A model generated the notes under the pieces. The model was not told the DNA's origin. It saw only the letters and a list, made by a program, of their open reading frames with translations, and did no database searches. The position numbers were made by a program, and so were the translations under genes. A stretch of 64,000 nucleotides of DNA from Candidatus Latescibacterota bacterium (lineage in GTDB: Bacteria > Latescibacterota > UBA2968 > UBA8231), in NCBI GenBank assembly GCA_965197905.1, contig CBDAOB010000003.1, positions 768,001 through 832,000 of the forward strand, in the 5' to 3' direction. This document shows, in pieces, positions 1 through 17,897 of this stretch. Each line of letters begins with the position of its first letter. Positions within the stretch are counted from its first letter, which is position 1.

Positions 1-3000
1 ACCGTCGAATCGCCCGGTTTCAACGGTGCCCTTGCCGAGGAGGTGGGTGGCCTCCTGGAAGAGGCCGGCCTGCCGCGCAGCGGCATGTTGCGGCTGCGCG
101 ACGGGCGCACCGGACAGCTCTTCGAGCGCGAGACGACCGTCGGGTATATCTACTACATGAAGCTGCACCACATGGCCGAGGATCTGATCAAAACGAGGCC
201 CGCCGGCCCAATGACCACGGAGGAAAACCCCGAGAAACCGCAGGGATATCGGCTGGGCATCATGGAAACCTGGGCTCTGCAAGCTCACGGCGCCGCACAC
301 ATGTTGCGCGAGATGTCGACGGTACAAGGCGGGCAGGAGCAGGAGGTGACCTACGACGCCCTCGTGCACGGGGTTGATTTTCCGCCGCCCCAGCCGACCC
401 AATCTATTGCCAGGCTTGCCAGGCAGCTGCGCGGGCTCTGCCTCGATCTCCAGCTGCACGACGCCGGCGGTCATCAAATCAGTCTGAAGGAAGCGGGAGA
501 AGCGCCGGATCTGGATGCGATCGAGATGGCATCCGTAGAATTCGCAACATCGCAGACCGTCGATAGTTGGGGAATCGTAACCGAACTTCCGGACGCGACG
601 GCAGTGGAAGCGTTTTTGCAGGGCGATGCCCGAGACGGTGTAGGTCTGATCCCGTTGGCCTGTCCGGTACTGCACCCCTGGCGAACCATGTTGCCCGCGG
701 ATACGACGCCATCGGAGATTGCCAAGCTTCCAGTGCTGGCGCGATCCCTGAGGAATGGGCGCGCCCACGATTCGCTCTATCTGGCGCTGGCAGCCGTGAA
801 CGACATCGTGCGGTCGGATGATACCTCCGACCACGAAATCCGCACGGCACTCCAGGAGGCGGTGGACGAGCTTTTCGGCGACGGCGGCGGCGGCGATGGC
901 TTGAATCGATTGCTCTACGGGAAGCGTGGTTGGTTTGCCGCCGCAATGACCGGAACTAGGGTGGACTACTCGGGCAAGGCGGTCATCGCGCCAGGACCGA
1001 ACCTGCTCCAGGATGAATGCGGACTGCCGCGAAGAATGGCACGTTCTTTGTTCGCGCCATTCGTGGTCGGAGCCTTGTTGCGAGCCGGGAAAGCGAAGTC
1101 GGAAGAGGAGGCGCGCCGCATGATACGAGACGGGCGCGCCGAACGAGAGCTGGACGAGATTGCCTCGACGAAGCTGGTACTGCTACACCGGGCGCCGGTC
1201 CTGCACCGCTGGGGCATTCAAGCGTTCAAGCCGGTGTTGACCGAGGAGGAGGTTCTGCGGCTGCACCCGCTGACCAACGTGACCTTCAACGCCGACTTCG
1301 ACGGCGATGCGCTGGAGGTGTTCCTCCCTCTATCCGCTATCGCACAGCGCGAAGCGCAGGAGATGAGACCCACCAACAACCAGTTGGGCTCGGCCGACGG
1401 CACCTACATCCACGGCTTGAGCCAGGAGATGGTATTCGGTTGTTATTACGCGACCGCCGCGACCGCCACGGAGAAGCCGGTAATTGACCTCGCCAGCACG
1501 GACGCGGTGGCGGCCACCTTCGACCGCGGAGACGTGCGCATTCATGACCCGGTGAGAGTAATGGATGGGAGCTCACGCATTTCATCCGTGGGTCGCGTTT
1601 TGTTCGGTCAGCTGCTGCCGGATGGGTTGGAATGGACGGACGGGCAAGTCGACAAACGGGCACTGAAGGACCTGCTCGATCGGTGTTGGCACCAGTTGGG
1701 CCCCCCGTCTGCTGCCGAGCTGGCGAACGCAATGATGGTTTTCGGCTTTCGCATGGCAACCCGGTCAGGCGTATCGATCGGCAAAGACACCTATTCTCAG
1801 TTCAGCGGCTACGACGAGATGCTCGCCGCCGCGTGGCAGCGTGCGGACGAGCTCGCGGCCACCGACAACGACGAGCAAAGGATCGTCGATCACTGGATGG
1901 AAGTGCGTGATCGAATGACCGTGCAGGCGTTGGAAGAGCATGCCGCCATAGAGGACGGTCTCAATCCGACCCACATGATGGTTGTATCCGGAGCGCGGGG
2001 CAATTCGAATCAGCTGCTCCAGCAGATCGCCATGCGTGGTCTTTTTGTGCGCCAGGACGGTTCCCTTTATTCGATCCCATGTACGACCACCAACGTGCGG
2101 GGACAAAACCCGCTCGAGTTCCTTGCGGGGGTTGAAGGAGCACGCCGAGGTCTGGCGGATTGCACCTTGAAGGCTGCGCGCTCAGGATATCTCTTCAAGA
2201 GGATCGTCAGCTCGGTACAAGACGTGTTGATCACCGAGGAGAACTGCGGCACCGATGCCAGCCTGGAAAAACGGCCGCTCCGTGTGCGCCAGCGGGAAGT
2301 GCAAACGCTTGAGAACCGAATCGCCGGGCGGTTTGCCGCCGCCGATATCCTGTTTCCGGGAAGTAAAGCTCCGATCGTGGCGGCCGGGAACCTGATTGGC
2401 AGAGTTGAAGCTGCCGAGATTGGAGAAAGTGCCGTCGAGTCGGTTCTCGTTCGCTCGCCCATAACATGCGAATCCTCACGGGGCGTCTGCAGCAAATGTT
2501 ATGGGGTCGAGCTGAGCCGCTGGTCGCCGGCGACGGCCCACCTGCCGGTCGGTATCATCGCTGCCCAATCACTGGGCGAGCCGCTGACGCAGCTCACCAT
2601 GCGGTCGTTCACCTTGTCGATGCAGGGACAGCCTCCATCTGCAAACATCATCGCCAGCCTACCTGGACTGGAGGATTTGTTCGAGGCGGGCAAAAGACCC
2701 GGGAAGGAAGCATCGGAACTGCGAACCGCTCTGGTCGAGATGCTGGAGAAGGAAGGTTCGGGGTGCGCAGGAGCCTACCTTCTGGACGCGGTGCTCCTGC
2801 ACTATCGCAACATGGGAGTTCCCCTCGACGACAGACACCTGGAGATCGTCATCCGTCGGATGGTCCGTAGCGACGGGATCGACAGTGGACCGACTATCAG
2901 GGGCGTGACTGAAGTTGCGCGTCAGGGCAACGACTTCATGACGGCGGCGGTTTCCTTCGATGGAGTAGCCGCGCTGGCGCGGGCGGCCGCCAGCAGCCAA

Positions 3001-3066
3001 CGGATGCACCTGGATGGTGTGAGCAGCAGCACCGCTTTCGGCAAGCTTATGCCTGCAAGGGTCTAG
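1..3066 (+). CDS. rpoBC: Divergent fused DNA-directed RNA polymerase beta-beta' paralog (5'-partial; streamlined beta')
   Basis: Frame is open from base 1 (TVESPGFNGA..., matching RpoB 'ATPVFDGA'). RpoB C-terminal motifs DGRTG, GYIYYMKLHH and GIMETWALQAHGAA run without a stop into RpoC motifs RVDYSG, HRAPVLHRWGIQAF, NADFDGD (1288-1308), SGARG, GARRGLAD..SGYL, EENCG, RSPITC..GVCSKCYG, GIIAAQSLGEP.TQLTMR, DDRHLEIVIRRM and GKLMPA. Confidence 0.93.
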   Translation, partial: TVESPGFNGALAEEVGGLLEEAGLPRSGMLRLRDGRTGQLFERETTVGYIYYMKLHHMAEDLIKTRPAGPMTTEENPEKPQGYRLGIMETWALQAHGAAHMLREMSTVQGGQEQEVTYDALVHGVDFPPPQPTQSIARLARQLRGLCLDLQLHDAGGHQISLKEAGEAPDLDAIEMASVEFATSQTVDSWGIVTELPDATAVEAFLQGDARDGVGLIPLACPVLHPWRTMLPADTTPSEIAKLPVLARSLRNGRAHDSLYLALAAVNDIVRSDDTSDHEIRTALQEAVDELFGDGGGGDGLNRLLYGKRGWFAAAMTGTRVDYSGKAVIAPGPNLLQDECGLPRRMARSLFAPFVVGALLRAGKAKSEEEARRMIRDGRAERELDEIASTKLVLLHRAPVLHRWGIQAFKPVLTEEEVLRLHPLTNVTFNADFDGDALEVFLPLSAIAQREAQEMRPTNNQLGSADGTYIHGLSQEMVFGCYYATAATATEKPVIDLASTDAVAATFDRGDVRIHDPVRVMDGSSRISSVGRVLFGQLLPDGLEWTDGQVDKRALKDLLDRCWHQLGPPSAAELANAMMVFGFRMATRSGVSIGKDTYSQFSGYDEMLAAAWQRADELAATDNDEQRIVDHWMEVRDRMTVQALEEHAAIEDGLNPTHMMVVSGARGNSNQLLQQIAMRGLFVRQDGSLYSIPCTTTNVRGQNPLEFLAGVEGARRGLADCTLKAARSGYLFKRIVSSVQDVLITEENCGTDASLEKRPLRVRQREVQTLENRIAGRFAAADILFPGSKAPIVAAGNLIGRVEAAEIGESAVESVLVRSPITCESSRGVCSKCYGVELSRWSPATAHLPVGIIAAQSLGEPLTQLTMRSFTLSMQGQPPSANIIASLPGLEDLFEAGKRPGKEASELRTALVEMLEKEGSGCAGAYLLDAVLLHYRNMGVPLDDRHLEIVIRRMVRSDGIDSGPTIRGVTEVARQGNDFMTAAVSFDGVAALARAAASSQRMHLDGVSSSTAFGKLMPARV

Positions 3067-3111
3067 GTCGAACGAGTTCGCGCAGACGGCACGCCCAATC
3101 CCAAACCATGC

Positions 3112-9677: not shown

Positions 9678-12600
9678 TCATTTTACCAACAGCAAGCGGC
9701 TCGTTCTCACATCGCGACCGGTCGATAACTGATACATGTAGATACCCGTTGCCACCGCTCGTCCGGCGTCGTCGGTACCGTCCCAGGTTATAGAGTGGTG
9801 GCCGGACCTTTCCGCCGCGGCGACGATGTGTCGAATCCGTTGCCCCGTCACGTTGTAGATGGAGAATTCGACGGGACTCGCCTCGGGAAGATGGTAGTTT
9901 ATTACGGTTTGCGCGTTGAACGGATTCGGAAAGTTCGGGAAGAGCGTCAAGACCTCGGGTAGCGCTTGTCCATCGGCCGCTATCGACATAGGCAGCTCGG
10001 GATACGACACTTGCAGTTGCCGGTTTGCCTTCAGGTCGGTGCGGATGCTCTCGCGCCCATCCGGCCAGACGATGCGCAACGTGTCAACTCGAGTCCCGGC
10101 GCCCAAGCCGAAGTGAATCTCGAGAGGCGCCTGGCTGCCGTATCCGAATCCGGGATGCAGCTCTTTGTACTGTCGCCCTTCCTGCGTAACCAGTAAGATC
10201 TGGGCGCCCAGTGCGTCTCGATTACCGCCGATCCCGATGAGGTCCAGCTGCAGCCAGCGGCTCTCTTCCAACTCGCTGCGATACAAACGACTCGACACCG
10301 CGTCGGCAACCAGCAGATCTTGATCGCCATCTCCGTCGAAATCGGCAACGCTGAGGCCGCGCCCGGCCGATTCCTTCTCGAGGCCGGAAAAACCACCCAG
10401 CGATCTCCACCCGTCGGAACCGTTGTTGTACAACTGGTCTCCGCCGTTTGCAGAGCCCACTCCCGTAGTGATCAGATCGAGATCGCCGTCGTTGTCGGTA
10501 TCGACGAAAGCGGCGCCGGCACACGAGGTTCCCAGCTTCCCCGGTCTCTCCTCAGTGACCCAGTTGAAACCCGTTCCGTCCAGATTCTTGAACAGCCGAT
10601 TGTCTGACGTTTCCCCGGTGGTGAAAAGGTCGACAAATCCATCCCCGTCGTAGTCGCCGAAGACACCGGCCACGTCGTCGTTGGAAAACGGCACTCCCAA
10701 TTCCTCGCCGACCTCGGTAAACTGCCCGGTGTCATTCCGGTAGAGCCGGCTTGGACCGTTCCTGTTCGCCACCAGAACGTCAGCATCGCCATCGCGATCG
10801 AAGTCGCCGAAAGACAGACCGCGACCGTCTCCGGTATCGTTCAATCCCTTCTGTGCTGCCATATCGACAAAAGCTGTCCCGTCGTTGCGAAACAATCGAT
10901 TGGTATCCGGGCTGGCGTTTACCAGGAACAGATCCAGATCGCCATCGGCATCGGCATCCCAGAAACCGGCGCTGCGGCCGGAACCATCATCTCCCAATGA
11001 ACCGCCTTCACCGCCGACAAACTGCGTGGTTACGTCCGTGAACTGGGAATCTTCGTTGCGCAACAACCGATTGGCCTGGCCCTGGCGGACGAGATACAGA
11101 TCCAGATCGCCGTCGCCGTCGTAATCGCCCACGGCGAACCCGCGACCCACACCCTCGTCTGCAAGACCTACCTCTGCATCGACCAGACGAAATGCATCGC
11201 CGTCGTTGCGCAACAGCTGATCCTCATCTCCCTGTCGCACGAGCAGAAAATCGAGATCGTTGTCGCCGTCAAAGTCGAAGAATCCGGCGCCGTTACTGTT
11301 GTTCAGATCCGCTTCGATCTCCACCGTCGAATAGGTAACCGGCACCTCCACCAGTTCGAGGGGCCGCGGATCGAGAAAGGTCGCCAAACTCTCGAATGAC
11401 GTCGATATACCGAATTGCAGTTCATAATTCCCACCTGCTAGCCCTGAGACCGACGGAAATTCGATCTCTCTGTCGGTAAATGGCACCAGCGGCGGCTGCT
11501 GTTGTTGGTAAGAAGCTACCACTCGGCCGTCCCGCAAAATCCGGTATTCCACCGGGAAGGGCTGGGACTTTCCATTACCACCGTTGGATACCAGAAGTCG
11601 AGGAACTACATCGCTCGCGGCCGCCGCCGACTCGGGAGCCAACACCGATTTGATCTCCAGACGCGGTTTCACTTCAGCTTCCACATCTCCCATGAGGAAG
11701 GTGATCTGATCGCCGAGGAAGCGCTGTCGGCTTTCCGACAACGTCCGCGGAAGATCAAGACCGACGAATATGGTGCGAAAGCGACCGGCATCGAATCGCA
11801 CCGCGGCGACGCGCCCCAACGTGTCCTGCAAAATCGATTCCGTGCCGTCGTTAGGCCGGACAGAGGCGAAGTTTATGCTGCCGTCGGCCCGATCCCCTGT
11901 CACAGACTCGAACGCACCGAAACCTGCGCGGGTTAGCTGCGGTGCAATCCCCAGGATATTGCTTCGGAATTCGCCTCCAGTTGGAGAATACGCCATGTAC
12001 GGAGTCGCCAGGAGTATCCTCCCTCCCTGGTGTGCGAACTCCTCGACGAAGTTTTGTTCTAATTCGTTGATTCTCGGCATCAGCCATATCACGAATTTAC
12101 CCGCGCCGATGTAGTGCCGTAGGAGGAGGTCGTAGAGTGATTTATCGGATAGATCCGAACTCTTGTTCAACACGTTCGCTTCCAAACCCCTTTTTTCCAG
12201 GATCGAGCGGAGGTCGTCGACTAGCGGGGCACCCTTTTTTAGATGTTTGTCGATGATCAGAACGGGACTCCACCGGGTGAAGTTCACCGCTTCCACGGTC
12301 AGTAGTCGGGACCCCATGAGCCGGCGTCCGTTTTTGTCGCGCACGCGAGCCACGATCTTGTAGTTGCCGGGCGCCGGGGGATTGAACTTGATTTGGAACA
12401 GGCGGTGATCTTTGTCCTCGCTTCGTACTAGAGGAAGCACGAGCCCGCCCGGGGCACCGCCTCCTCGGCGAGAAAAGGCGGATCCACGCACCAGCAGCTC
12501 GACCGATTCCACTGCCGCCGTCGTCGTCACCTGTAGCAAGATTGAATCGCCGTGCAGGACGAGAGCCCCATCATTGCGAATGATTGTCCCTGGAATCTCC

Positions 12601-15600
12601 ATTTCCATCTCTTGACGGAGACTCTGATTCAGCAGTGGAATGGCATTCGCGACGATTTCGCCTATATCTGGCAAACGCGCCACGTCGAAGGCGAGGAACA
12701 CCGCCCGGTAGCCACCTGCATCCACGTGTACTCCTGCCGCATTGCCGGTCGTACTCAGGATCAGCGGGATAGCGTGTTCGTGGGGGACCAGCTTGCGATG
12801 GGTGATCCTTGCCCCCTGGCTCAAAAACGTTCCCGCGCTGTCGGAGAACACAGACTCGAGTTGCTTCTCTTCGTAGTTGCCGGCTGTTGTGTGCAGGTAG
12901 GTCTCGACGAATTCGGCAAAGCTGTGCGGAGAGCCGCCTTTCGAACCAAGGAACAATCGTCCGTGGCGATCGAGGAACTTCTGCAGAATTTCTGGCACGC
13001 CGTTCGCCCCGAACATCCCGAGCCAGAAGAGCGCCTTGTTTTCTCCGGCGTAGCTTAGAATCAACTCTTCGTACAGCCTTTTGTCCCTCTCGGGGTAATC
13101 GATGATGTCGGCGGAGGTATTGTTCTTGGACATCGCATGCACGATCTCCTCCCGCAAGAAAGACCGGATGCGTCCCGAAATCGATTGGTTGACGAAGACC
13201 AGGTTTGGTCGATCCATGAGCCGCAGAACCTGACGTCGGGCCGAGCTGGGCATACTGTTTCCCTGTTCATCAAAAATGCGTGCTGAATAGAGGAAGTGGC
13301 CCGATTCGGGGACCCGTACCGATCCCGTAAATCCGCCCCCTGCTTTTCGAGCCAATGGTACGGTCTCGACGAGGGCCATGGTCGGCAGCAGACGCACCTC
13401 AAGCTCGGAACGGACAACCTCTTCCGGTGCGTGGATATGAACCGTGGGTGCTTCGGACCCCTTCAGCAATACTGACTCCCCGACCAGTTCGTCCGTTTCA
13501 AACTCCAGCGCGACGTCTGATATATTCTCGGAGGTTAGATACGCCAACCCCGATTCGAGGAGGGAACGGGTTATGTAGGCGTCTAGCGGACCGAGATCGA
13601 AAGGGAAATAGATCATGCGGAAGGTGCCCGTGTCGACCCGCATTGCCGCGGCGTTGGAGGTGGCGTCATACAGCATCGGTTCAGCGGGATCTAAGAGCAT
13701 CAGGGACGAGTAGCTCGAGTTGAACGGATCCGATGACTGCAGGTCCAGCCCGGTAATCATGCTCGTCCTTCGAGACGATTGCTGCTGAATGTGCAACACC
13801 TCCCTCCCGAATGTTCCCCATGACCGTTGCCTGGAGGAGATCATCATCCGGCCCCCTTGCTCGAGGAATGAACGCATATGGATTCGTGCCTCCCGGCTGA
13901 TCTTCTCACCCATCCATAGCACCGTTCCACCGGTGCGAGCGAACGCGGGCAACAGAACCTCGTAAAGCTCGCCTTCCTCTGGTGCACCATCGATCATGTA
14001 GTGAGACTGACCCCGGGCGGTCATAACCTGGTCGAGGATTTCGACCAGGTTAGCACGGCTCTCTTCGTCTATCTCCTTGCTCACGAAGGTCAGTACTTCC
14101 GCCTCGCCAGATGTCCTCCCTAAGAGGAGCGTCGAGTCGGCGAAAGTTGCGTACCCATTCTGACCGTAGACCCGGACGAAAATTTCGTAGAAACCCTCGT
14201 ACTCGGGAGGAATCGAAGCTTCAAAAATATGGGCATCGCCTTGCATACCGAGCTTCTCCATCGATACGGTCAACACGTGATCGTGTTCTTGGAGGGTACG
14301 TATCATCAGATCCGCCTGGGAGATCTCGCCCTGCACCAAGGCTCGCACAGGAGTCGCAACTCCGCGTGGCACAACTGCTGCGCGGCCGAGGATTTCGTGG
14401 CCGGGGACTTCGAAGTCGACATCGTTTTCCGGGTATTCGCCCTCGACGACGAGCTTCAGGGTGTCCCGTTTTATCTGCGCGAACGCTGCGTTGTAGCTCG
14501 CGTAGATCTGGCGCCCGTATTCCACCACGATCTCGATCTCGGTGCCTGGCTCCGCTTCCCGGCTCACTCTCAGCGGGATAACCTCGACGTGGCTCTTACC
14601 GGGATCCAGATCGAACGATTCTTCGACCCTCAGCGTTTTGGATCGCGGCGTCCAGTTTCCGCGCTCCCATGCGGGCTCGATGAATTCCGAGTCCCAGCGT
14701 AAGGTGGGTCGCAGACGCTTGAAGTTCCGTAGGGTCCAATTGTCAAGGGTCAATTCCAGCTGGATGGTCTCTCCAGGATTGAGGCGCCCGTCGCCATTTC
14801 CCGCCGTATCAAAGGTCGGGGTGTCCACCAGGTCGAGATTGAAGTCCAGCATCAGTTCCAACAAACCGGAGGGAGCGCGCTGAAACACGAAACCGTGGAG
14901 AACCCCGTCGAGCACGATATTCGACGATGAAACCTCGATGCGGCTCGAGTCCGCCGGATCGATGAGGATTCCGTACCAGCTGTCTCCCAGCTGCATCGAT
15001 TTGAAGAAAACATCCGACTTTGAATGGTCACCGACGATCAGGTCGCCGTTGATCTCCAGCTCCGACAGGTTGGGATCCACTCCACCGCGCATCCGGTCGC
15101 TTCCCGACATGCGTACATTCGTCTCCCCGTGGATGTGCAGCTCGCCGTCGACCGCTACGCGCACATCTCCGTCGACTACGACATCGCCCGCCCAATCCAC
15201 CCGTTCATTGATGATGCCTGCCCAGCGGGGTTGGGTTACGTCGACGATCATGGTTGTGCCCCTGCGATTCATATCGAGGCTCAGACCTGTTGTGGCCGCC
15301 GAGGAGTGCCCCCACGGGTTGTTCGAAGGGTTGGAAAACTGATCCAATCGCTTCGCCTTCACGCCGTCGAAAGGGTCGGTGGCGTCGCCGAAGTTACCCC
15401 CGTTCAGCTGTGAATACGCGGTGTCATGGGCCCAATAATCGAGATTGTCGCGACCGAAACGACCATCCGGAAGGCGGCCTTTTGGGAATCCTGAATCGGC
15501 GTACAGACCGTCGGCACAGACCAGGTCCAAGGTCTTGGCGGTTTCGTCAGCGTTTCCCCACAATTGAGGTCGGACGTGCCAGACCAAGAGGCCTTCTCCG

Positions 15601-16709
15601 GGGATGTTCCGTCGGTAGAACGAACTCGACCGGGTCACTTGCTCGAGCAGGAGATACTCCTGGGTGGCGGAGCGGTCGCCCCTGGCAACCATACGCAGCG
15701 GAATCTTAAAGATGCTACCTCCGGAAAGGCGATCGGACACCTCCAGGCCGGTCGCATCCGTTTCAACCTCAATCAGCTGCTGATTGTCCACCCCGATCCA
15801 GCCGAGGAGCTCCAGACTGCGGGCGCTGAAGGGCGCGGGCCCGTCTTGACCGGTCCATCCGTGGGCACCCCATCCCATCAATCCCCAACGGCCGATGCCG
15901 GCGCTGTCCTCTTCAGGTGTGCCAAAAGCCCGGTCGTATAAGTCGGGGAGTCCCAGCCGGTGTCCGAACTCGTGGGCCATGGAACCAACCGTCTGGGCGT
16001 AGTTCCCCTCCTGCTGCAAGGCCCCATGCCTGATGGATCCGGCGATGGCGACCGTGCCGCCCTTGGCGGCAGCGTCATCGCTGTCGAGCATGAGCGAACC
16101 GAGGTTCGCAATGCCCGTGGCGCCTCCCGTAATGAATCCGCGAGGGGTGGACAGGGTGTTGACGAAGATGTAGTCGACGAACCCATCATCGTCACCGGAG
16201 TTCGGAACGCCATCCTCGCCGTCGTTGTCGAATTGCGACATGTCGACGTCCCGGTCGACCTGGGCCAAAATCTCGGCCAGGAATTCGTCATATTTGCCGT
16301 ATCGCGACGGGTCGTGCACCACGTATGCCGAAGCAGGGCGATCGGAGCTGTACCGTTTGGGCAGCACGCTACCATTGACCGTGAGCCGCGCACCGGACAT
16401 CTCGCTGAAAAAGTGAGAAAAGCTTCCTGGAAGATTCTCGTCGAAAAGCTTGCTGGCGAAGGGCGGCGCCGTCTGAATCTGTGGCGCCTCATTCTTGAAT
16501 TTCGCGTAGACGACGAGGACATTGACAGTTCCCGTCGTGTGTGACAAGGTCATCTTCGCCACCGCGCCGGCAGGTAGCGGCGGAGACTCGTATCCCGAAC
16601 AGACGAATTCTTGCGCGGCAAGCGGTACGGACGTACTGAGGCCCAGGAGGAGGGGGAGAATCCTTGGGGTGCATTTAAGATGCTCCAGTTTCCGTAAAGT
16701 ACCCAACAT
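9678..16709 (-). CDS. Giant secreted multidomain protein: M6 (immune inhibitor A-like) metallopeptidase, three internal ~300-aa repeats, CARDB-like domain, FG-GAP/CRTAC1 repeats, ASPIC/UnbV, FlgD-Ig C-terminal domain
   Basis: HEFGHRLGLPDLYD (HEFGH at 15960-15974), WGLMGWG Met-turn, many D(F/Y)DGDGDLD repeats, HPGFGYGSQ..IHFGLG, C-terminal NFPNPFN...WDGTDDAGRAVATGIY. ATG 16709 has a GGAG RBS. Confidence 0.88.
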   Translation of the reverse strand: MLGTLRKLEHLKCTPRILPLLLGLSTSVPLAAQEFVCSGYESPPLPAGAVAKMTLSHTTGTVNVLVVYAKFKNEAPQIQTAPPFASKLFDENLPGSFSHFFSEMSGARLTVNGSVLPKRYSSDRPASAYVVHDPSRYGKYDEFLAEILAQVDRDVDMSQFDNDGEDGVPNSGDDDGFVDYIFVNTLSTPRGFITGGATGIANLGSLMLDSDDAAAKGGTVAIAGSIRHGALQQEGNYAQTVGSMAHEFGHRLGLPDLYDRAFGTPEEDSAGIGRWGLMGWGAHGWTGQDGPAPFSARSLELLGWIGVDNQQLIEVETDATGLEVSDRLSGGSIFKIPLRMVARGDRSATQEYLLLEQVTRSSSFYRRNIPGEGLLVWHVRPQLWGNADETAKTLDLVCADGLYADSGFPKGRLPDGRFGRDNLDYWAHDTAYSQLNGGNFGDATDPFDGVKAKRLDQFSNPSNNPWGHSSAATTGLSLDMNRRGTTMIVDVTQPRWAGIINERVDWAGDVVVDGDVRVAVDGELHIHGETNVRMSGSDRMRGGVDPNLSELEINGDLIVGDHSKSDVFFKSMQLGDSWYGILIDPADSSRIEVSSSNIVLDGVLHGFVFQRAPSGLLELMLDFNLDLVDTPTFDTAGNGDGRLNPGETIQLELTLDNWTLRNFKRLRPTLRWDSEFIEPAWERGNWTPRSKTLRVEESFDLDPGKSHVEVIPLRVSREAEPGTEIEIVVEYGRQIYASYNAAFAQIKRDTLKLVVEGEYPENDVDFEVPGHEILGRAAVVPRGVATPVRALVQGEISQADLMIRTLQEHDHVLTVSMEKLGMQGDAHIFEASIPPEYEGFYEIFVRVYGQNGYATFADSTLLLGRTSGEAEVLTFVSKEIDEESRANLVEILDQVMTARGQSHYMIDGAPEEGELYEVLLPAFARTGGTVLWMGEKISREARIHMRSFLEQGGRMMISSRQRSWGTFGREVLHIQQQSSRRTSMITGLDLQSSDPFNSSYSSLMLLDPAEPMLYDATSNAAAMRVDTGTFRMIYFPFDLGPLDAYITRSLLESGLAYLTSENISDVALEFETDELVGESVLLKGSEAPTVHIHAPEEVVRSELEVRLLPTMALVETVPLARKAGGGFTGSVRVPESGHFLYSARIFDEQGNSMPSSARRQVLRLMDRPNLVFVNQSISGRIRSFLREEIVHAMSKNNTSADIIDYPERDKRLYEELILSYAGENKALFWLGMFGANGVPEILQKFLDRHGRLFLGSKGGSPHSFAEFVETYLHTTAGNYEEKQLESVFSDSAGTFLSQGARITHRKLVPHEHAIPLILSTTGNAAGVHVDAGGYRAVFLAFDVARLPDIGEIVANAIPLLNQSLRQEMEMEIPGTIIRNDGALVLHGDSILLQVTTTAAVESVELLVRGSAFSRRGGGAPGGLVLPLVRSEDKDHRLFQIKFNPPAPGNYKIVARVRDKNGRRLMGSRLLTVEAVNFTRWSPVLIIDKHLKKGAPLVDDLRSILEKRGLEANVLNKSSDLSDKSLYDLLLRHYIGAGKFVIWLMPRINELEQNFVEEFAHQGGRILLATPYMAYSPTGGEFRSNILGIAPQLTRAGFGAFESVTGDRADGSINFASVRPNDGTESILQDTLGRVAAVRFDAGRFRTIFVGLDLPRTLSESRQRFLGDQITFLMGDVEAEVKPRLEIKSVLAPESAAAASDVVPRLLVSNGGNGKSQPFPVEYRILRDGRVVASYQQQQPPLVPFTDREIEFPSVSGLAGGNYELQFGISTSFESLATFLDPRPLELVEVPVTYSTVEIEADLNNSNGAGFFDFDGDNDLDFLLVRQGDEDQLLRNDGDAFRLVDAEVGLADEGVGRGFAVGDYDGDGDLDLYLVRQGQANRLLRNEDSQFTDVTTQFVGGEGGSLGDDGSGRSAGFWDADADGDLDLFLVNASPDTNRLFRNDGTAFVDMAAQKGLNDTGDGRGLSFGDFDRDGDADVLVANRNGPSRLYRNDTGQFTEVGEELGVPFSNDDVAGVFGDYDGDGFVDLFTTGETSDNRLFKNLDGTGFNWVTEERPGKLGTSCAGAAFVDTDNDGDLDLITTGVGSANGGDQLYNNGSDGWRSLGGFSGLEKESAGRGLSVADFDGDGDQDLLVADAVSSRLYRSELEESRWLQLDLIGIGGNRDALGAQILLVTQEGRQYKELHPGFGYGSQAPLEIHFGLGAGTRVDTLRIVWPDGRESIRTDLKANRQLQVSYPELPMSIAADGQALPEVLTLFPNFPNPFNAQTVINYHLPEASPVEFSIYNVTGQRIRHIVAAAERSGHHSITWDGTDDAGRAVATGIYMYQLSTGRDVRTSRLLLVK

Positions 16710-16838
16710 TTTGTACTCCGTCTGTTTGCGGAACACAGTGTCTTGGGGAGACCTGAGGTTCAACGGTCGCTCATCCACAACGCGGATGGCGGTGGGACAG
16801 GAGAAAAGAGTCGTGGGGGAAGTTCGAGTATATCCAAT

Positions 16839-17027: not shown

Positions 17028-17897
17028 ATGAACTTGATTACCGTGACAGAGAGATTCCCGACGCAAGAATCCTGCATTGCTCATCTGGAGCGGATACGCT
17101 TCGGCGATGAGCCCTTTTGCCCCTTGTGCGGCACGGTCGGGGAATGCGCCCGCAAGAAGCAGGGGAATGTAATCGGGCGTTGGAACTGTCACGCTTGCAA
17201 ATCCAGCTTCAATGTCTTATCCCAGACCATGTTTCAAGGCACGCATCTTCCCTTGCAAAAGTGGTTCTGCGCCATCGCCCTGATCGTGAACGCCAAGAAA
17301 AGCCTGTCCAGTTGCCAGCTCGGGCGTGACTTGAACCTGAATCAGCGGTCCGCCTGGTACATGCAACAGCGCATCCGGGCTGAAATGGCTACCAAGCAGG
17401 GAAGAATCAGGTTAACTGGACTCATCGAAGCCGACGAGACCTACGTCGGCGGACGCCCCAGGAAGCGCAACAGGCGCGACGACGACAAACCCAACCTCAG
17501 AGGACGGGGAACGCGCAAGACCGCGGTTATCGGCGCTGTGGAGCGCTCAGGGAAGGTTGTGGCTCAGGTCGCCGACGATCTCTCCGCTAAGGGCGTGCTC
17601 GAGTTTATCAAACGTGCCATCAATCCTGACGCCTCGACGTTGGTCACGGACGAATATGGGGCCTACAACGTAGTGCGGCGGATCATGGATCACTGCGTGA
17701 TTCAGCATTCCAAGCGTTATGTTGATGGCACGATTCACACGAACACGATCGAAGGCGTGTGGTCTTTGCTCAAGCGGGCGTGGTATGGATCGCATCATCA
17801 CTACACGCCGCTTTACGTGGCCGAGGCTTGTTTCAAGTACAATCACCGCGACGACGACAACGCCTTCGGTTCTTTCCTACAAGGGTGCTTCAAGTAA
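17028..17897 (+). CDS. IS1595 family (ISXO2-like) transposase
   Basis: Zn ribbon CPLCG..WNCHAC, HTH region, catalytic motifs EADETYVGG, LVTDEY, HTNTIEGVWSLLKR. Confidence 0.95.
   Translation: MNLITVTERFPTQESCIAHLERIRFGDEPFCPLCGTVGECARKKQGNVIGRWNCHACKSSFNVLSQTMFQGTHLPLQKWFCAIALIVNAKKSLSSCQLGRDLNLNQRSAWYMQQRIRAEMATKQGRIRLTGLIEADETYVGGRPRKRNRRDDDKPNLRGRGTRKTAVIGAVERSGKVVAQVADDLSAKGVLEFIKRAINPDASTLVTDEYGAYNVVRRIMDHCVIQHSKRYVDGTIHTNTIEGVWSLLKRAWYGSHHHYTPLYVAEACFKYNHRDDDNAFGSFLQGCFK

What the first reader, a model, noticed from the sequence alone, without database searches (positions are those of the whole stretch)
2560..2720. Trigger loop lacks the catalytic His; jaw deleted
Seen: GEPLTQLTMRSFTLSM replaces the canonical GEPGTQLTMRTFHxGG. 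The hinge Gly is Leu, His is Thr (ACC 2611-2613) and the GG is lost, while Q, M and R are kept. After LPGLEDLFEAGKRP the chain jumps almost directly to the YLLDAV..DDRHLEIVIRRM region. Known: beta' His936 (E. coli numbering) helps nucleotide addition and intrinsic RNA cleavage; its loss slows but does not abolish catalysis. The jaw holds downstream DNA. Inference: a slow, low-fidelity or non-proofreading polymerase, or a pseudo-enzyme that still binds Mg.
Basis: partly seen in the sequence, partly recalled or inferred. Interest (0 to 1): 0.75.

Follow-up and report, generated by a model that had tools for sequence, protein, structure and literature searches.

The report
One-chain spare RNA polymerase lacking trigger-loop histidine
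The odd trigger loop belongs not to the cell's normal RNA polymerase but to a rare extra gene that fuses trimmed alpha, beta and beta-prime subunits into one protein, probably a slower, specialised second transcription enzyme.

Summary
At window 2575-2622 the protein reads GEPLTQLTMRSFTLSM: Thr (ACC 2611-2613) stands where canonical beta' has His, Leu replaces the hinge Gly, the GG is gone, and the jaw is deleted.

The gene is not rpoC. It is a 1917-aa ORF that starts 2688 nt upstream of the window. It fuses an RpoA N-terminal domain, a trimmed beta and a trimmed beta'. The same genome keeps normal rpoA, rpoB and rpoC, whose beta' has the canonical GEPGTQLTLRTFHIGG. It also holds a third, miniature beta-beta' gene with its own ECF sigma.

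The fused form defines a small, rare family, found in 4 of 168 genomes of the phylum and in Lentisphaerae/Victivallales MAGs. All six holder genomes I examined also have a canonical rpoC.

Across 36 family sequences NADFDGD, the bridge helix and the trigger-loop Gln and Arg are conserved (Met is M, L or F). The "His" position is H13, Y11, A5, T4, S2, V1, against 174 His in 176 canonical beta'.

dN/dS is 0.22, against 0.03-0.05 for rpoC and rpoB.

Best reading: an active accessory RNA polymerase with a weakened trigger loop and a reduced DNA clamp, comparable to plant Pol IV. I found no description in the papers searched. Its function is inferred, not shown.

The parts
1..3066 (+). 3' 3066 nt (last 1021 codons plus stop) of a 1917-codon gene for a fused RpoA-NTD / beta / beta' protein. 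The gene starts 2688 nt upstream of the window (L006:10313 = contig C3:765313).
   Evidence: Searches give the ORF. Pfam finds RNA_pol_L and RNA_pol_A_bac (aa 20-197), Rpb2_3/6/7 (aa 423-1011) and Rpb1_2/3/4/5 (aa about 1214-1769). A sigma70-like promoter (TTGCCT-17-TATTAT) and GGAGG before the ATG are conserved in the sister species.
1..492 (+). C-terminal part of the beta module (aa 897-1060), including the degenerate 'GYRLGIMETWALQAHGA' stretch that matches the GGQRFGEMEVWALEAYG stretch of this genome's own RpoB.
   Evidence: Alignment to own RpoB and family alignment.
493..642 (+). Poorly conserved beta-to-beta' linker (aa 1061-1110). It stands in place of the first roughly 215 residues of beta', including the four-Cys zinc finger.
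   Evidence: dN/dS of aa 1012-1110 is 0.25.
643..684 (+). 'GLIPLACPVLHPWR'. The family consensus HxELAxPVxHPWR resembles the GHIELAVSVSHIW motif of this genome's own beta', which follows the zinc finger there.
   Evidence: Family alignment. This is my reading of the motif. A pairwise HMMER alignment places the stretch differently.
760..876 (+). Two helices (aa about 1150-1168 and 1173-1188) at the position of the beta' clamp helices. The flanking lid and rudder loops are each about 10 residues shorter than in own RpoC.
   Evidence: Alignment. The helices are H66-84 and H89-104 of the model, with block pLDDT 67-86. The model as a whole is poor.
1288..1308 (+). NADFDGD catalytic Mg-binding loop (aa 1326-1332).
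   Evidence: N, A and the three Asp are invariant in 21 of 21 aligned relatives. F is Y in P0010 and P0011.
2113..2226 (+). Bridge helix region (aa 1601-1638, ...GARRGLADCTLKAARSGYLFKRIVSSVQDV).
   Evidence: G1609, A1610, R1611, G1613, L1614, D1616, L1619, G1625, L1627, K1629 and D1637 are invariant.
2551..2700 (+). Compact trigger loop with no SI3 insert (aa 1747-1796): GIIAAQSLGEPLTQLTMRSFTLSMQGQPPSANIIASLPGLEDLFEAGKRP.
2584..2586 (+). CTG = Leu1758 at the place of the trigger-loop hinge Gly.
   Evidence: The family has 0 Gly in 36 sequences here (M12, A12, L11, V1), against Gly in 172 of 176 canonical beta'.
2611..2613 (+). ACC = Thr1767 at the place of the NTP-contacting His (E. coli beta' H936).
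2701..2778 (+). Short helical filler (aa 1797-1822) where canonical beta' has the jaw. About 65 canonical residues are missing.
   Evidence: The jaw is deleted in all 21 aligned relatives.
2779..3066 (+). C-terminal beta' core (YLLDAV...DDRHLEIVIRRM...FGKLMPARV) and stop codon. It lacks canonical residues about 1227-1260 and the C-terminal tail.

Best explanation
The trigger loop belongs to an accessory, single-polypeptide RNA polymerase, not to the housekeeping enzyme. One 1917-aa chain carries an alpha N-terminal (assembly) domain, a beta module and a beta' module.

The beta module lacks the lobe (beta2) and the flap tip/SI2 region. The beta' module lacks the N-terminal zinc finger and most of the N-terminal clamp. 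Its lid and rudder are shortened, and it has no SI3, no jaw and no C-terminal tail.

The two-barrel active centre is intact, so the protein most likely still makes RNA. The trigger loop can probably still fold: helix 1, Gln, Met, Arg and Phe are kept. But it has lost the His that positions the NTP beta-phosphate and the Gly residues that flank it.

By analogy with characterised His substitutions and with plant Pol IV, I infer slower nucleotide addition, weaker NTP binding, lower fidelity and poor trigger-loop-dependent intrinsic cleavage. Loss of the jaw, lobe, lid, zinc finger and flap tip predicts a loose grip on downstream DNA. It also predicts initiation and RNA-exit behaviour unlike the sigma70 holoenzyme. 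That points to a specialised job rather than bulk mRNA synthesis.

Shown: the architecture, the paralogy, the conservation pattern, purifying selection and rarity. Inferred: catalytic activity, the kinetic consequences, and the template and biological role.
For: 1. Architecture. Pfam finds RpoA NTD, Rpb2 and Rpb1 domains on one chain. Alignment to own RpoA, RpoB and RpoC gives 28%, 41% and 36% identity and maps the deletions.

2. Paralogy. The genome also holds a canonical rpoB (1262 aa), rpoC (1362 aa, trigger loop GEPGTQLTLRTFHIGG) and rpoA. All six distinct holder genomes examined (G000, G002, G023, G157=G168, G169, G170) also carry a canonical rpoC.

3. Family. 24 further clusters at 90% identity (P0005-P0026 and P0029) and about 9 representatives at 50% identity among 1.84 billion proteins.

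4. Active-site conservation. In 21 aligned relatives (43-50% identical, plus one at 83%), the following are invariant: N, A and the three Asp of NADFDGD; beta R579 (DxNRALMG), N703/E705/D706, R839-H840-G841-K843-G844 and P874-S875-R876; beta' R1293-A1294-P1295; bridge-helix residues; four Cys (1645, 1719, 1726, 1729); and trigger-loop G1755-E-P, Q1760, L1761, T1762, R1764 and F1766.

5. The His position is free to vary. It reads H13, Y11, A5, T4, S2, V1 in 36 sequences. It needs at least 9 state changes on a 33-row family tree built without the trigger loop. Canonical beta' has His in 174 of 176.

6. Selection. dN/dS between G000 and G002 is 0.22 (dS 0.43). For rpoC it is 0.033 and for rpoB 0.047, at similar dS of 0.39-0.47. 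The gene is constrained but about five-fold more relaxed, and appears co-inherited with the chromosome in this genus.

7. Expression signals. A sigma70-like promoter and GGAGG are conserved in the sister species.

8. Literature. H936 is a positional catalyst and H936Q has minor effects (passages of PMC13198411). Pol IV has Ser at this position, disordered lid and rudder, and lower NTP affinity, rate and fidelity (passages of PMC11343019).
Against: There is no expression or biochemical data. No RNA run holds the gene, so activity is inferred from conservation alone.

dN/dS is about five times that of the housekeeping subunits. The lineage leading to this genus has a long stem branch (0.59).

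In the sister species' cluster, two assemblies carry the gene split into two ORFs. One splits at codon 1011 and one near codons 341-346. These could be real decay or long-read assembly errors.

The gene is absent from most relatives: it is present in 4 of 168 genomes of the phylum.

The beta residue that matches K1073 lies in a stretch that is 5 residues shorter in this genus than in other family members, which mostly have Arg there.

No conserved neighbour, sigma factor or template-related gene hints at a role.

The AlphaFold model of the beta' module was poor (mean pLDDT 61; trigger loop below 50), so trigger-loop folding is not supported structurally.
Confidence: 0.6

Rival explanations
1. 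It is a decaying or non-catalytic paralog (pseudo-enzyme). The protein keeps the fold and perhaps Mg or DNA binding, but no longer polymerises. It may act as a scaffold or decoy, or be on its way to loss.
For: The 'universally conserved' His is lost. dN/dS of 0.22 is five to six times that of rpoC and rpoB. Copies are split in two assemblies of the sister species. The distribution is patchy, 4 of 168 genomes. Many functional modules are lost.
Against: All three catalytic Asp, the beta active-site residues, the bridge helix and most trigger-loop residues are invariant in 21 relatives at 43-50% identity (plus one at 83%). That is not expected without catalysis. The 1917-codon frame is open in G000, G002 and other lineages. 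dN/dS is well below 1 in every module, including the trigger loop at 0.21. H936Q has only minor effects in E. coli (PMC13198411 passages).
Confidence: 0.12
2. It is a back-up housekeeping polymerase. It still uses host sigma factors through the retained clamp helices and transcribes ordinary genes when the main enzyme is blocked, for example by RNAP-targeting antibiotics.
For: Two helices are predicted and conserved at the clamp-helix position. The stretch matching the rifampicin-binding cluster I differs from own RpoB: 'TQLRRVVQTDVG' against 'THKRRLSALGPGG'. That these are resistance positions is recalled, not tested. Second rpoB copies giving rifamycin resistance in some actinomycetes are also recalled, not checked.
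Against: The flap tip (the docking site of sigma region 4), the zinc finger, the lid and the beta lobe, all used in canonical open-complex formation, are deleted. The weakened trigger loop and missing jaw argue against efficient, processive mRNA synthesis. There is no link to antibiotic gene clusters in the neighbourhood.
Confidence: 0.15
3. It is the polymerase of a mobile element (prophage, ICE or plasmid remnant) that transcribes the element's own genes, as phage multisubunit RNAPs and YonO do.
For: The distribution is patchy across two phyla. The family branches outside the 33 sampled canonical beta'. A PcfJ-like gene lies about 4.3 kb upstream and an IS1595 transposase about 14 kb downstream. 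In the Lentisphaerae subclade an IrrE/M78-like gene lies nearby in 2 distinct loci.
Against: No family member was found in IMG/VR viral contigs or in PLSDB plasmids, where the 8 of 68 matching records that were listed are all canonical-type rpoB/rpoC regions at under 60% identity. No neighbour is shared among the alpha-fused loci L006, L022, L025 and L029; their flanks are ordinary metabolic genes. GC (0.62 against a genome value of 0.58) and GC3 (0.715 against 0.685-0.705 for rpoC and rpoB) are host-like. dS equals that of rpoB and rpoC within the genus. PADLOC gives no hit.
Confidence: 0.08
4. It is simply this organism's rpoC with an unusual trigger loop.
For: The window alone shows only the beta' part, with good RNAP motifs.
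Against: Canonical rpoB, rpoC and rpoA lie elsewhere in the genome with a normal trigger loop. The protein scores below every NCBIfam rpoA, rpoB, rpoC and rpoBC cut-off. An AU test rejects grouping the family with own RpoC (p 0.0057).
Confidence: 0.01

Closest known systems
Canonical bacterial RNAP core subunits RpoA, RpoB, RpoC (here: the genome's own copies on contig C5)
   Same: Bacterial-type alpha NTD, beta and beta' cores in the same order as assembly (alpha, beta, beta'). Identity to the own subunits is 28%, 41% and 36%. NADFDGD, bridge helix, trigger-loop helix 1, the second zinc site and beta active-site residues are kept.
   Different: One chain with a single alpha NTD and no alpha CTD. 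It has no beta lobe, no flap tip/SI2, no zinc finger and no jaw. Lid and rudder are short. The trigger-loop His, hinge Gly and GG are lost. It scores below all NCBIfam equivalog cut-offs. It is rare and dispensable in relatives.
Natural RpoB-RpoC fusions (Helicobacter/Wolinella, Wolbachia type; NCBIfam NF007172, NF011417)
   Same: Beta is fused to beta' in one polypeptide.
   Different: Those are the sole, full-length housekeeping enzymes of about 2800-2900 aa with canonical motifs. This protein scores 790 bits against a cut-off of 5372, and 742 against 4632. It is a paralog, is trimmed by about a third, and adds alpha at the N-terminus. PMC2919709 and PMC11515920 (passages) list beta::beta' fusions only.
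Plant RNA polymerase IV (NRPD1), as a functional analogy only
   Same: An accessory paralog of the main multisubunit RNAP. Ser stands at the invariant trigger-loop His position, with loose lid and rudder and reduced NTP affinity, rate and fidelity (PMC11343019 passages). Here Thr stands there, with Ser, Ala, Tyr or Val in relatives, and lid and rudder are shortened.
   Different: Pol IV is eukaryotic with 12 subunits, a kinked bridge helix and RDR2 coupling. There is no evolutionary link and no evidence here for a silencing-type role.
Miniature fused beta-beta' RNAP with its own ECF sigma
   Same: A chromosomal, single-chain, trimmed RNAP paralog beside a normal RNAP, in little-studied phyla.
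   Different: The mini form is 1019 aa, ends after the bridge helix (no trigger loop at all), has no alpha, and sits directly downstream of an ECF-type sigma gene. The present family is about 1600-2000 aa, keeps a trigger loop, often carries alpha and has no sigma neighbour. The two share only local similarity (E 6e-13).
YonO (SPbeta prophage) and phage or killer-plasmid single-chain two-barrel RNAPs
   Same: A single polypeptide homologous to multisubunit RNAP, with accessory modules lost.
   Different: YonO shares only 'very distant homology' with msRNAPs (abstract of PMC5467207, seen in the listing). Killer-plasmid Orf6 is a 982-aa Rpb2::Rpb1 fusion (PMC2919709 passages). The present protein is plainly bacterial-type (36-41% identity to host beta and beta'), chromosomal, and not found in viral or plasmid collections. 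I made no direct sequence comparison with YonO.

Membership tests
RpoC (beta') equivalog, TIGR02386 / NF011498 | Score above NCBI's curated cut-off | tested here: not met
   486.3 bits against a cut-off of 963.5; 376.6 against 1437.
RpoC (beta') equivalog | Catalytic NADFDGD loop and bridge helix | tested here: met
RpoC (beta') equivalog | Trigger loop with GEPGTQLTMRTFHxGG (hinge Gly, His, GG) | tested here: not met
   GEPLTQLTMRSFTLSM. Canonical control: His in 174 of 176, Gly in 172 of 176, GG in 172 of 176.
RpoC (beta') equivalog | N-terminal zinc finger, N-terminal clamp and jaw | tested here: not met
   Canonical residues about 1-215 and about 1117-1181 have no counterpart. Pfam Rpb1_1 is not detected.
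RpoC (beta') equivalog | The genome's only (housekeeping) beta' gene | tested here: not met
   A canonical rpoC lies on contig C5. The same holds in all six holder genomes examined.
RpoB (beta) equivalog, NF001616 / TIGR02013 | Score above cut-off; lobe (Rpb2_1, Rpb2_2) and flap present | tested here: not met
   657.4 bits against 896; 638.8 against 801. Own-RpoB residues 149-390 and 880-1004 are deleted. Pfam Rpb2_1, Rpb2_2 and Rpb2_45 are not detected.
RpoA (alpha) equivalog, TIGR02027 / NF003519 | Score above cut-off; NTD plus CTD | tested here: not met
   104.6 bits against 277; 93.7 against 227.8. The NTD is present (PF01193 and PF01000) and aligns end to end with own RpoA NTD at 29% identity. 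No CTD (PF03118) is detected.
Full-length RpoB-RpoC fusion, NF007172 / NF011417 | Score above cut-off; full-length beta and beta' | tested here: not met
   789.8 bits against 5372; 741.9 against 4632.
Two-barrel multisubunit-type RNA polymerase superfamily | Both catalytic modules: beta (Rpb2_6, with the conserved Glu-Asp and Lys/Arg residues) and beta' (Rpb1_2, with the Asp triad) | tested here: met
   Pfam PF00562 at 4.6e-79 and PF00623 at 1.1e-24. Invariant residues are listed.
Two-barrel multisubunit-type RNA polymerase superfamily | Templated RNA synthesis | not testable with these tools
   This needs biochemistry.
Miniature fused RNAP plus own sigma (earlier scan findings) | Chain of about 1000 aa, adjacent ECF-type sigma gene, no trigger loop | tested here: not met
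   This protein has 1917 aa and keeps a trigger loop. No sigma domain was found in the flanking ORFs of L006, L021, L022, L025 or L029. The genome's separate mini copy (P0003) does meet these features.
Phage or plasmid-borne RNAP | Encoded on a viral or plasmid replicon | tested here: not met
   0 relatives in IMG/VR. In PLSDB, 68 records matched, all under 60% identity, and the 8 listed are canonical-type rpoB/rpoC regions.

The most novel reading that the evidence does not exclude
Some bacteria own a second, sigma-independent, single-chain alpha-beta-beta' RNA polymerase that works like plant Pol IV. It would be a slow, low-fidelity, weakly clamped enzyme that makes short non-coding or primer-like RNAs from unusual templates (single-stranded, nicked or RNA templates), for example in genome defence, repair or regulation. 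The free variation at the trigger-loop His would then mark release from the speed and fidelity demands of mRNA synthesis. This fused lineage would be old, since it branches outside the sampled canonical bacterial beta'.
Probability: 0.15. Interest if true: 0.9.

Novelty: new variant of a known kind. Interest (0 to 1): 0.72.

Why it matters
Textbooks give bacteria one multisubunit RNA polymerase core, specialised only by sigma factors. This genome holds three RNAP-type catalytic genes: the normal set, a miniature beta-beta' with its own sigma, and this alpha-beta-beta' single chain.

The fused family is a natural experiment on what can be removed from RNAP (lobe, flap tip, zinc finger, lid, jaw, SI3). 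It also tests how essential the 'universally conserved' trigger-loop His is. Evolution has replaced it with Tyr, Ala, Thr, Ser or Val at least several times, while the neighbouring Gln, Arg and Phe stay fixed.

If the protein is active, it offers three things:
- a compact, single-gene bacterial-type RNAP for structural and synthetic-biology work;
- a direct test of positional catalysis by the trigger loop;
- a possible new layer of bacterial RNA synthesis, parallel to the eukaryotic Pol IV/V story.

If it is inactive, it is an unusually well preserved pseudo-polymerase.

Tried and rejected
**Structure.** The AlphaFold2 model of the beta' module (aa 1085-1917, 9-row alignment A2) came out poor: mean pLDDT 61.2, pTM 0.39, trigger loop and bridge-helix region below 50. 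I ran no fold search on it. I used it only for the two helices at the clamp-helix position.

**Complex prediction.** Fused alpha NTD (alignment A5) with the host RpoA NTD gave no verdict (score 0.09, mark 0.32). Whether a second alpha comes from the host stays open.

**Expression.** No RNA holder is listed for the gene. Only contigs of DNA-type or unknown-type runs could be laid.

**Conserved partners.** An all-against-all BLAST of flanking ORFs of 11 loci found no neighbour shared by the alpha-fused loci. Only the Lentisphaerae subclade shares a small convergent ORF and an M78/IrrE-like gene ([script error, repeated as 31], 31, 28). The 319-aa divergent upstream ORF (L006:9228-10187) has no Pfam, NCBIfam or PADLOC hit.

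**Mobile-element origin.** Nothing was found in IMG/VR. PLSDB returned canonical-type rpoB/rpoC regions among the 8 of 68 records listed.

**Synteny in the same-genus genome G001, which lacks the gene.** The upstream flank was not found. The downstream Ldh_2-like gene matches at only 68% nucleotide identity, with a different neighbour. G001 is 89% complete in 320 contigs, so this does not tell gain from loss.

**Literature.** Nine full-text searches and passages of PMC2919709 and PMC11515920 turned up no description of an alpha-beta-beta' fused paralog. The library lacks most subscription journals, and I opened no supplements, so prior description cannot be excluded.

**Recent duplication of the host rpoC.** This is rejected by the tree and by an AU test (p 0.0057). 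The group was named after the tree was seen, and long branches are in play.


Full report
**1. What is in the sequence**

Frame 1 of the window is open from base 1 to the stop at 3064-3066. Around the reported site it reads GIIAAQSLGEPLTQLTMRSFTLSMQGQPPSANIIASLPGLEDLFEAGKRPGKEASELRTALVEMLEKEGSGCAGAYLLDAVLLHYRNMGVPLDDRHLEIVIRRM. ACC at 2611-2613 encodes the Thr after Phe, and CTG at 2584-2586 encodes the Leu in GEPL.

A HMMER alignment to a solved beta' chain (6j9e_D) lays GEPLTQLTMRSFTLS on GEPGTQLTMRTFHIG. An alignment to the genome's own RpoC does the same. It also shows that about 65 canonical residues after LFEARRPK (the jaw) are missing, as is the SI3-type insert of the host's trigger loop.

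**2. It is not rpoC**

The ORF runs off the window. In the genome it is a 1917-codon gene at contig C3:765313-771066.

Pfam finds the following on the single chain:
- the RpoA dimerisation and insert domains at aa 20-197;
- Rpb2 domains 3, 6 and 7 at aa 423-1011;
- Rpb1 domains 2-5 at aa about 1214-1769.

The alpha part aligns end to end with the host RpoA N-terminal domain at 29% identity, including the invariant G..LRR.L motif. There is no alpha C-terminal domain.

The same genome has a normal rpoB (1262 aa), rpoC (1362 aa, trigger loop GEPGTQLTLRTFHIGG) and rpoA on contig C5. It also has a third, 1019-aa beta-beta' mini-gene.

NCBIfam places the fused protein below the curated cut-off of every rpoA, rpoB, rpoC and rpoBC model. 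For example, rpoC scores 486 against 963.5, and the rpoBC fusion model scores 790 against 5372.

**3. What has been removed**

Relative to the host subunits, the chain lacks:
- beta residues about 149-390 (lobe/beta2 with its insert);
- beta residues about 880-1004 (flap tip and SI2 region);
- roughly the first 215 residues of beta', including the four-Cys zinc finger;
- about 10 residues each of the lid and the rudder;
- SI3, the jaw, a further 34-residue segment (canonical 1227-1260) and the C-terminal tail.

It keeps the fork, the two catalytic barrels, two helices at the clamp-helix position, the rim-helix region, the F-loop, the bridge helix, the second zinc site (four invariant Cys) and a compact trigger loop. 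The naming of these modules rests on my knowledge of E. coli and Thermus RNAP. The coordinates rest on the alignments.

**4. The family**

The word-indexed search returned 24 further clusters at 90% identity (P0005-P0026 and P0029). They are 43-86% identical. Some have 1946-2003 aa with alpha, and some have 1589-1712 aa without alpha, alongside some shorter partial forms.

The exhaustive search of 1.84 billion representatives found about nine representatives at 50% identity before scores drop to other forms.

Named records are Latescibacterota MAGs (alpha-fused) and Victivallales/Lentisphaerae MAGs (beta-beta' only). A query that spans the family-specific beta/beta' junction hit 4 of 168 species genomes of the phylum. 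That is 3 of 49 genera, all in one family. Among the 41 nearest genomes only G000, G002 and G023 have the gene.

All six distinct holder genomes examined also carry a canonical rpoC.

No member was found in IMG/VR or PLSDB. PADLOC gives nothing. The flanks are ordinary metabolic genes, and the alpha-fused loci share no neighbour. So the gene travels alone, without a sigma factor. This contrasts with the genome's mini-RNAP, which sits directly downstream of an ECF-type sigma gene.

**5. Conservation pattern**

In an alignment of 21 members (mean column identity 59%), these are invariant:
- N, A and the three Asp of NADFDGD;
- the beta motifs DxNRALMG, NFED, RHGxKG and PSRMN;
- beta' RAP;
- bridge-helix residues;
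- trigger-loop G-E-P, Q, L, T, R and F.

The position of the canonical His is not conserved. Over 36 distinct family sequences it reads H13, Y11, A5, T4, S2, V1. The hinge Gly is never Gly (M12, A12, L11, V1), the Arg is kept in 36 of 36, and GG is never present.

As a control I took the 188 canonical-type beta' proteins from the same searches. Of these, 176 had a recognisable motif. His occurs in 174 of 176 (2 Gln), the hinge Gly in 172 and GG in 172.

On a family tree built without the trigger loop (33 rows), the His position needs at least 9 changes of state, and at least 3 between His and non-His. Thr is specific to this genus-level clade: P0002, P0005, P0006, P0271 and further copies.

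Jaw loss is shared by all 21 aligned members.

A second, looser group of long fused forms includes P0027, P0028, P0031, P0129, P0131, P0132, P0133 and P0137, some with an alpha NTD. It also mostly lacks His: 7 of the 8 aligned read A, V, Q, Q, A, Y, A, and P0131 has His. I do not know whether those are paralogs in their genomes.

**6. Selection and history**

Between G000 and the sister species G002 (83% protein identity), dN/dS is 0.22 for the whole gene. By module it is 0.34 for alpha, 0.21 for beta, 0.25 for the linker, 0.19 for beta' and 0.21 for the trigger-loop region, with dS 0.43. For the same genome pair, rpoC gives 0.033 and rpoB 0.047, at dS 0.47 and 0.39. The gene is thus under purifying selection, about five-fold relaxed, and has diverged in step with the chromosome.

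GC (0.62 against 0.58) and GC3 are host-like.

In a quick maximum-likelihood tree of the beta' core (60 rows), the 33 canonical sequences form one side of a branch (SH-aLRT 97). The family forms a clade (97), and the other fused forms fall between them. An AU test rejects uniting the family with the host RpoC (delta lnL 86.9, p 0.0057). So it is not a recent duplicate of the host gene. Fast evolution and long-branch effects prevent a claim of deep origin.

**7. Reality of the codon**

A contig of run X1 is identical over 2000-3100, though it may be the source sample. A contig of run X3, from a different study, spans the stretch with 7 differences. The five that are listed lie at 2505-2577, and two are unlisted.

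Short contigs of other organisms' rpoC match up to base 2610 and then continue with CAC or CAT (His). This shows where the canonical genes of the same communities diverge (table 7).

**8. How it most likely works**

Passages of PMC13198411 state that beta'H936 H-bonds the NTP beta-phosphate in the Michaelis complex. They say it acts as a positional rather than acid-base catalyst, and that the H936Q substitution has only minor effects. Passages of PMC11343019 report that plant Pol IV has Ser at this position and an unfolded trigger loop. They also report disordered lid and rudder, about six-fold lower NTP affinity, about seven-fold lower incorporation efficiency and lower fidelity.

On this basis I infer an active but slow and less accurate polymerase. 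It should have little trigger-loop-dependent cleavage and a weak hold on downstream DNA (no jaw, no lobe). Its initiation chemistry should differ from the sigma70 holoenzyme (no flap tip, zinc finger or full lid).

The beta' Asn of NADFDGD and the Arg of the conserved LHRAP motif (NRAP in own RpoC) are invariant. I recall these as the 2'-OH readers, which would suggest it still prefers rNTPs.

A conserved sigma70-like promoter and a GGAGG site precede the gene, so the host enzyme probably transcribes it.

The template, the product and the biological role are unknown. Whether a second alpha is needed is also unknown, because the complex prediction gave no verdict.

**9. Points against**

There is no expression evidence. 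Constraint is relaxed. The stem branch of this clade is long (0.59). Two assemblies of the sister species carry the gene split in two ORFs. The stretch matching beta K1073 is 5 residues shorter in this genus. The structure model is poor. These keep a decaying or non-catalytic paralog alive as a rival at about 0.12.

**10. Comparison and novelty**

Fused beta-beta' housekeeping enzymes, phage and killer-plasmid single-chain RNAPs and YonO are all known (passages of PMC2919709 and PMC11515920; abstract of PMC5467207).

I found no description of an alpha-beta-beta' fused, trimmed, chromosomal paralog in nine full-text searches. The limits are stated under Tried and rejected.

Earlier notes of this scan describe a different family, the miniature fused RNAP with its own sigma, on other genomes. 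I confirmed a copy of that cassette in this genome.

I class the finding as a new variant of a known kind.

Noticed in passing
L007:7587-11203 (= G000 contig C5:903587-907203), minus strand: A third RNAP-type gene. It is a 1019-aa fused beta-beta' mini-protein (NADFDGDQ kept) that ends just after the bridge helix, so it has no trigger loop. A 198-aa ECF-type sigma gene (Sigma70_r2 plus r4) lies directly upstream and overlaps its start. Similar open frames of about 1000-1130 aa occur in at least 16 of the 41 nearest genomes (listed rows). It matches the 'miniature fused RNA polymerase with own sigma' noted earlier in this scan on other genomes.
   Followed up: partly
relatives G031, G033, G036-G039, G007, G012, G016, G019-G021, G023, G027, G030, G034 and others (table): In many genomes of this class the canonical rpoB and rpoC matches lie in one open frame of 2635-2698 aa. 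This suggests a natural full-length rpoB-rpoC fusion in part of the phylum. In G000 the two genes are separate, with a 31-nt gap.
   Followed up: no
window aa 425-445 of the full protein (upstream of the window; L006:11585-11650): The stretch that matches rifampicin-binding cluster I of beta reads TQLRRVVQTDVG, against THKRRLSALGPGG in the host RpoB. Family members mostly have Gln (some His) and Val or Thr at the two positions I recall as the classic resistance sites. The fused enzyme may be naturally insensitive to rifamycins. The numbering and the resistance link are recalled, not tested.
   Followed up: partly
proteins P0273+P0275 and P0274+P0277 (sister-species cluster): Two assemblies that are 99.6-100% identical to the sister-species protein P0005 carry the fused gene as two ORFs. 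One breaks at codon 1011 and one near codons 341-346. These are either real inactivating alleles or assembly errors.
   Followed up: partly
G001:C300:1113-1931 (minus strand): In the same-genus genome that lacks the fused gene, there is a beta-like fragment 41% identical to aa 661-911 with three in-frame stops (2 TAG, 1 TAA). It may be a relic of some RNAP paralog.
   Followed up: no
window 9678-16778, minus strand: A 2366-aa secreted giant protein with an M6 (immune inhibitor A-like) peptidase domain, FG-GAP/ASPIC repeats and a FlgD-Ig/T9SS-type C-terminal sorting domain.
   Followed up: no
window 17028-17897 (+) and L006:4009-6021 (-): An IS1595-family transposase lies about 14 kb downstream of the fused gene, and a 670-aa PcfJ-like protein lies about 4.3 kb upstream. 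Neither is conserved next to other family members.
   Followed up: partly
proteins P0143 (2683 aa) and P0253 (1365 aa): These are the only two of 176 canonical-type beta' proteins with Gln instead of the trigger-loop His (GEPGTQLTMKNFQSGG and GEPGTQLTMRTFQVGG). They are natural counterparts of the laboratory H936Q variant.
   Followed up: no
L024:8344-10537, L026:5143-7277, L027:5574-6083: In the Lentisphaerae (alpha-less) subclade, a small convergent ORF without Pfam hits follows the fused gene in 3 distinct loci. An M78/IrrE-like peptidase gene follows in 2 of them. This may be plain shared synteny.
   Followed up: partly
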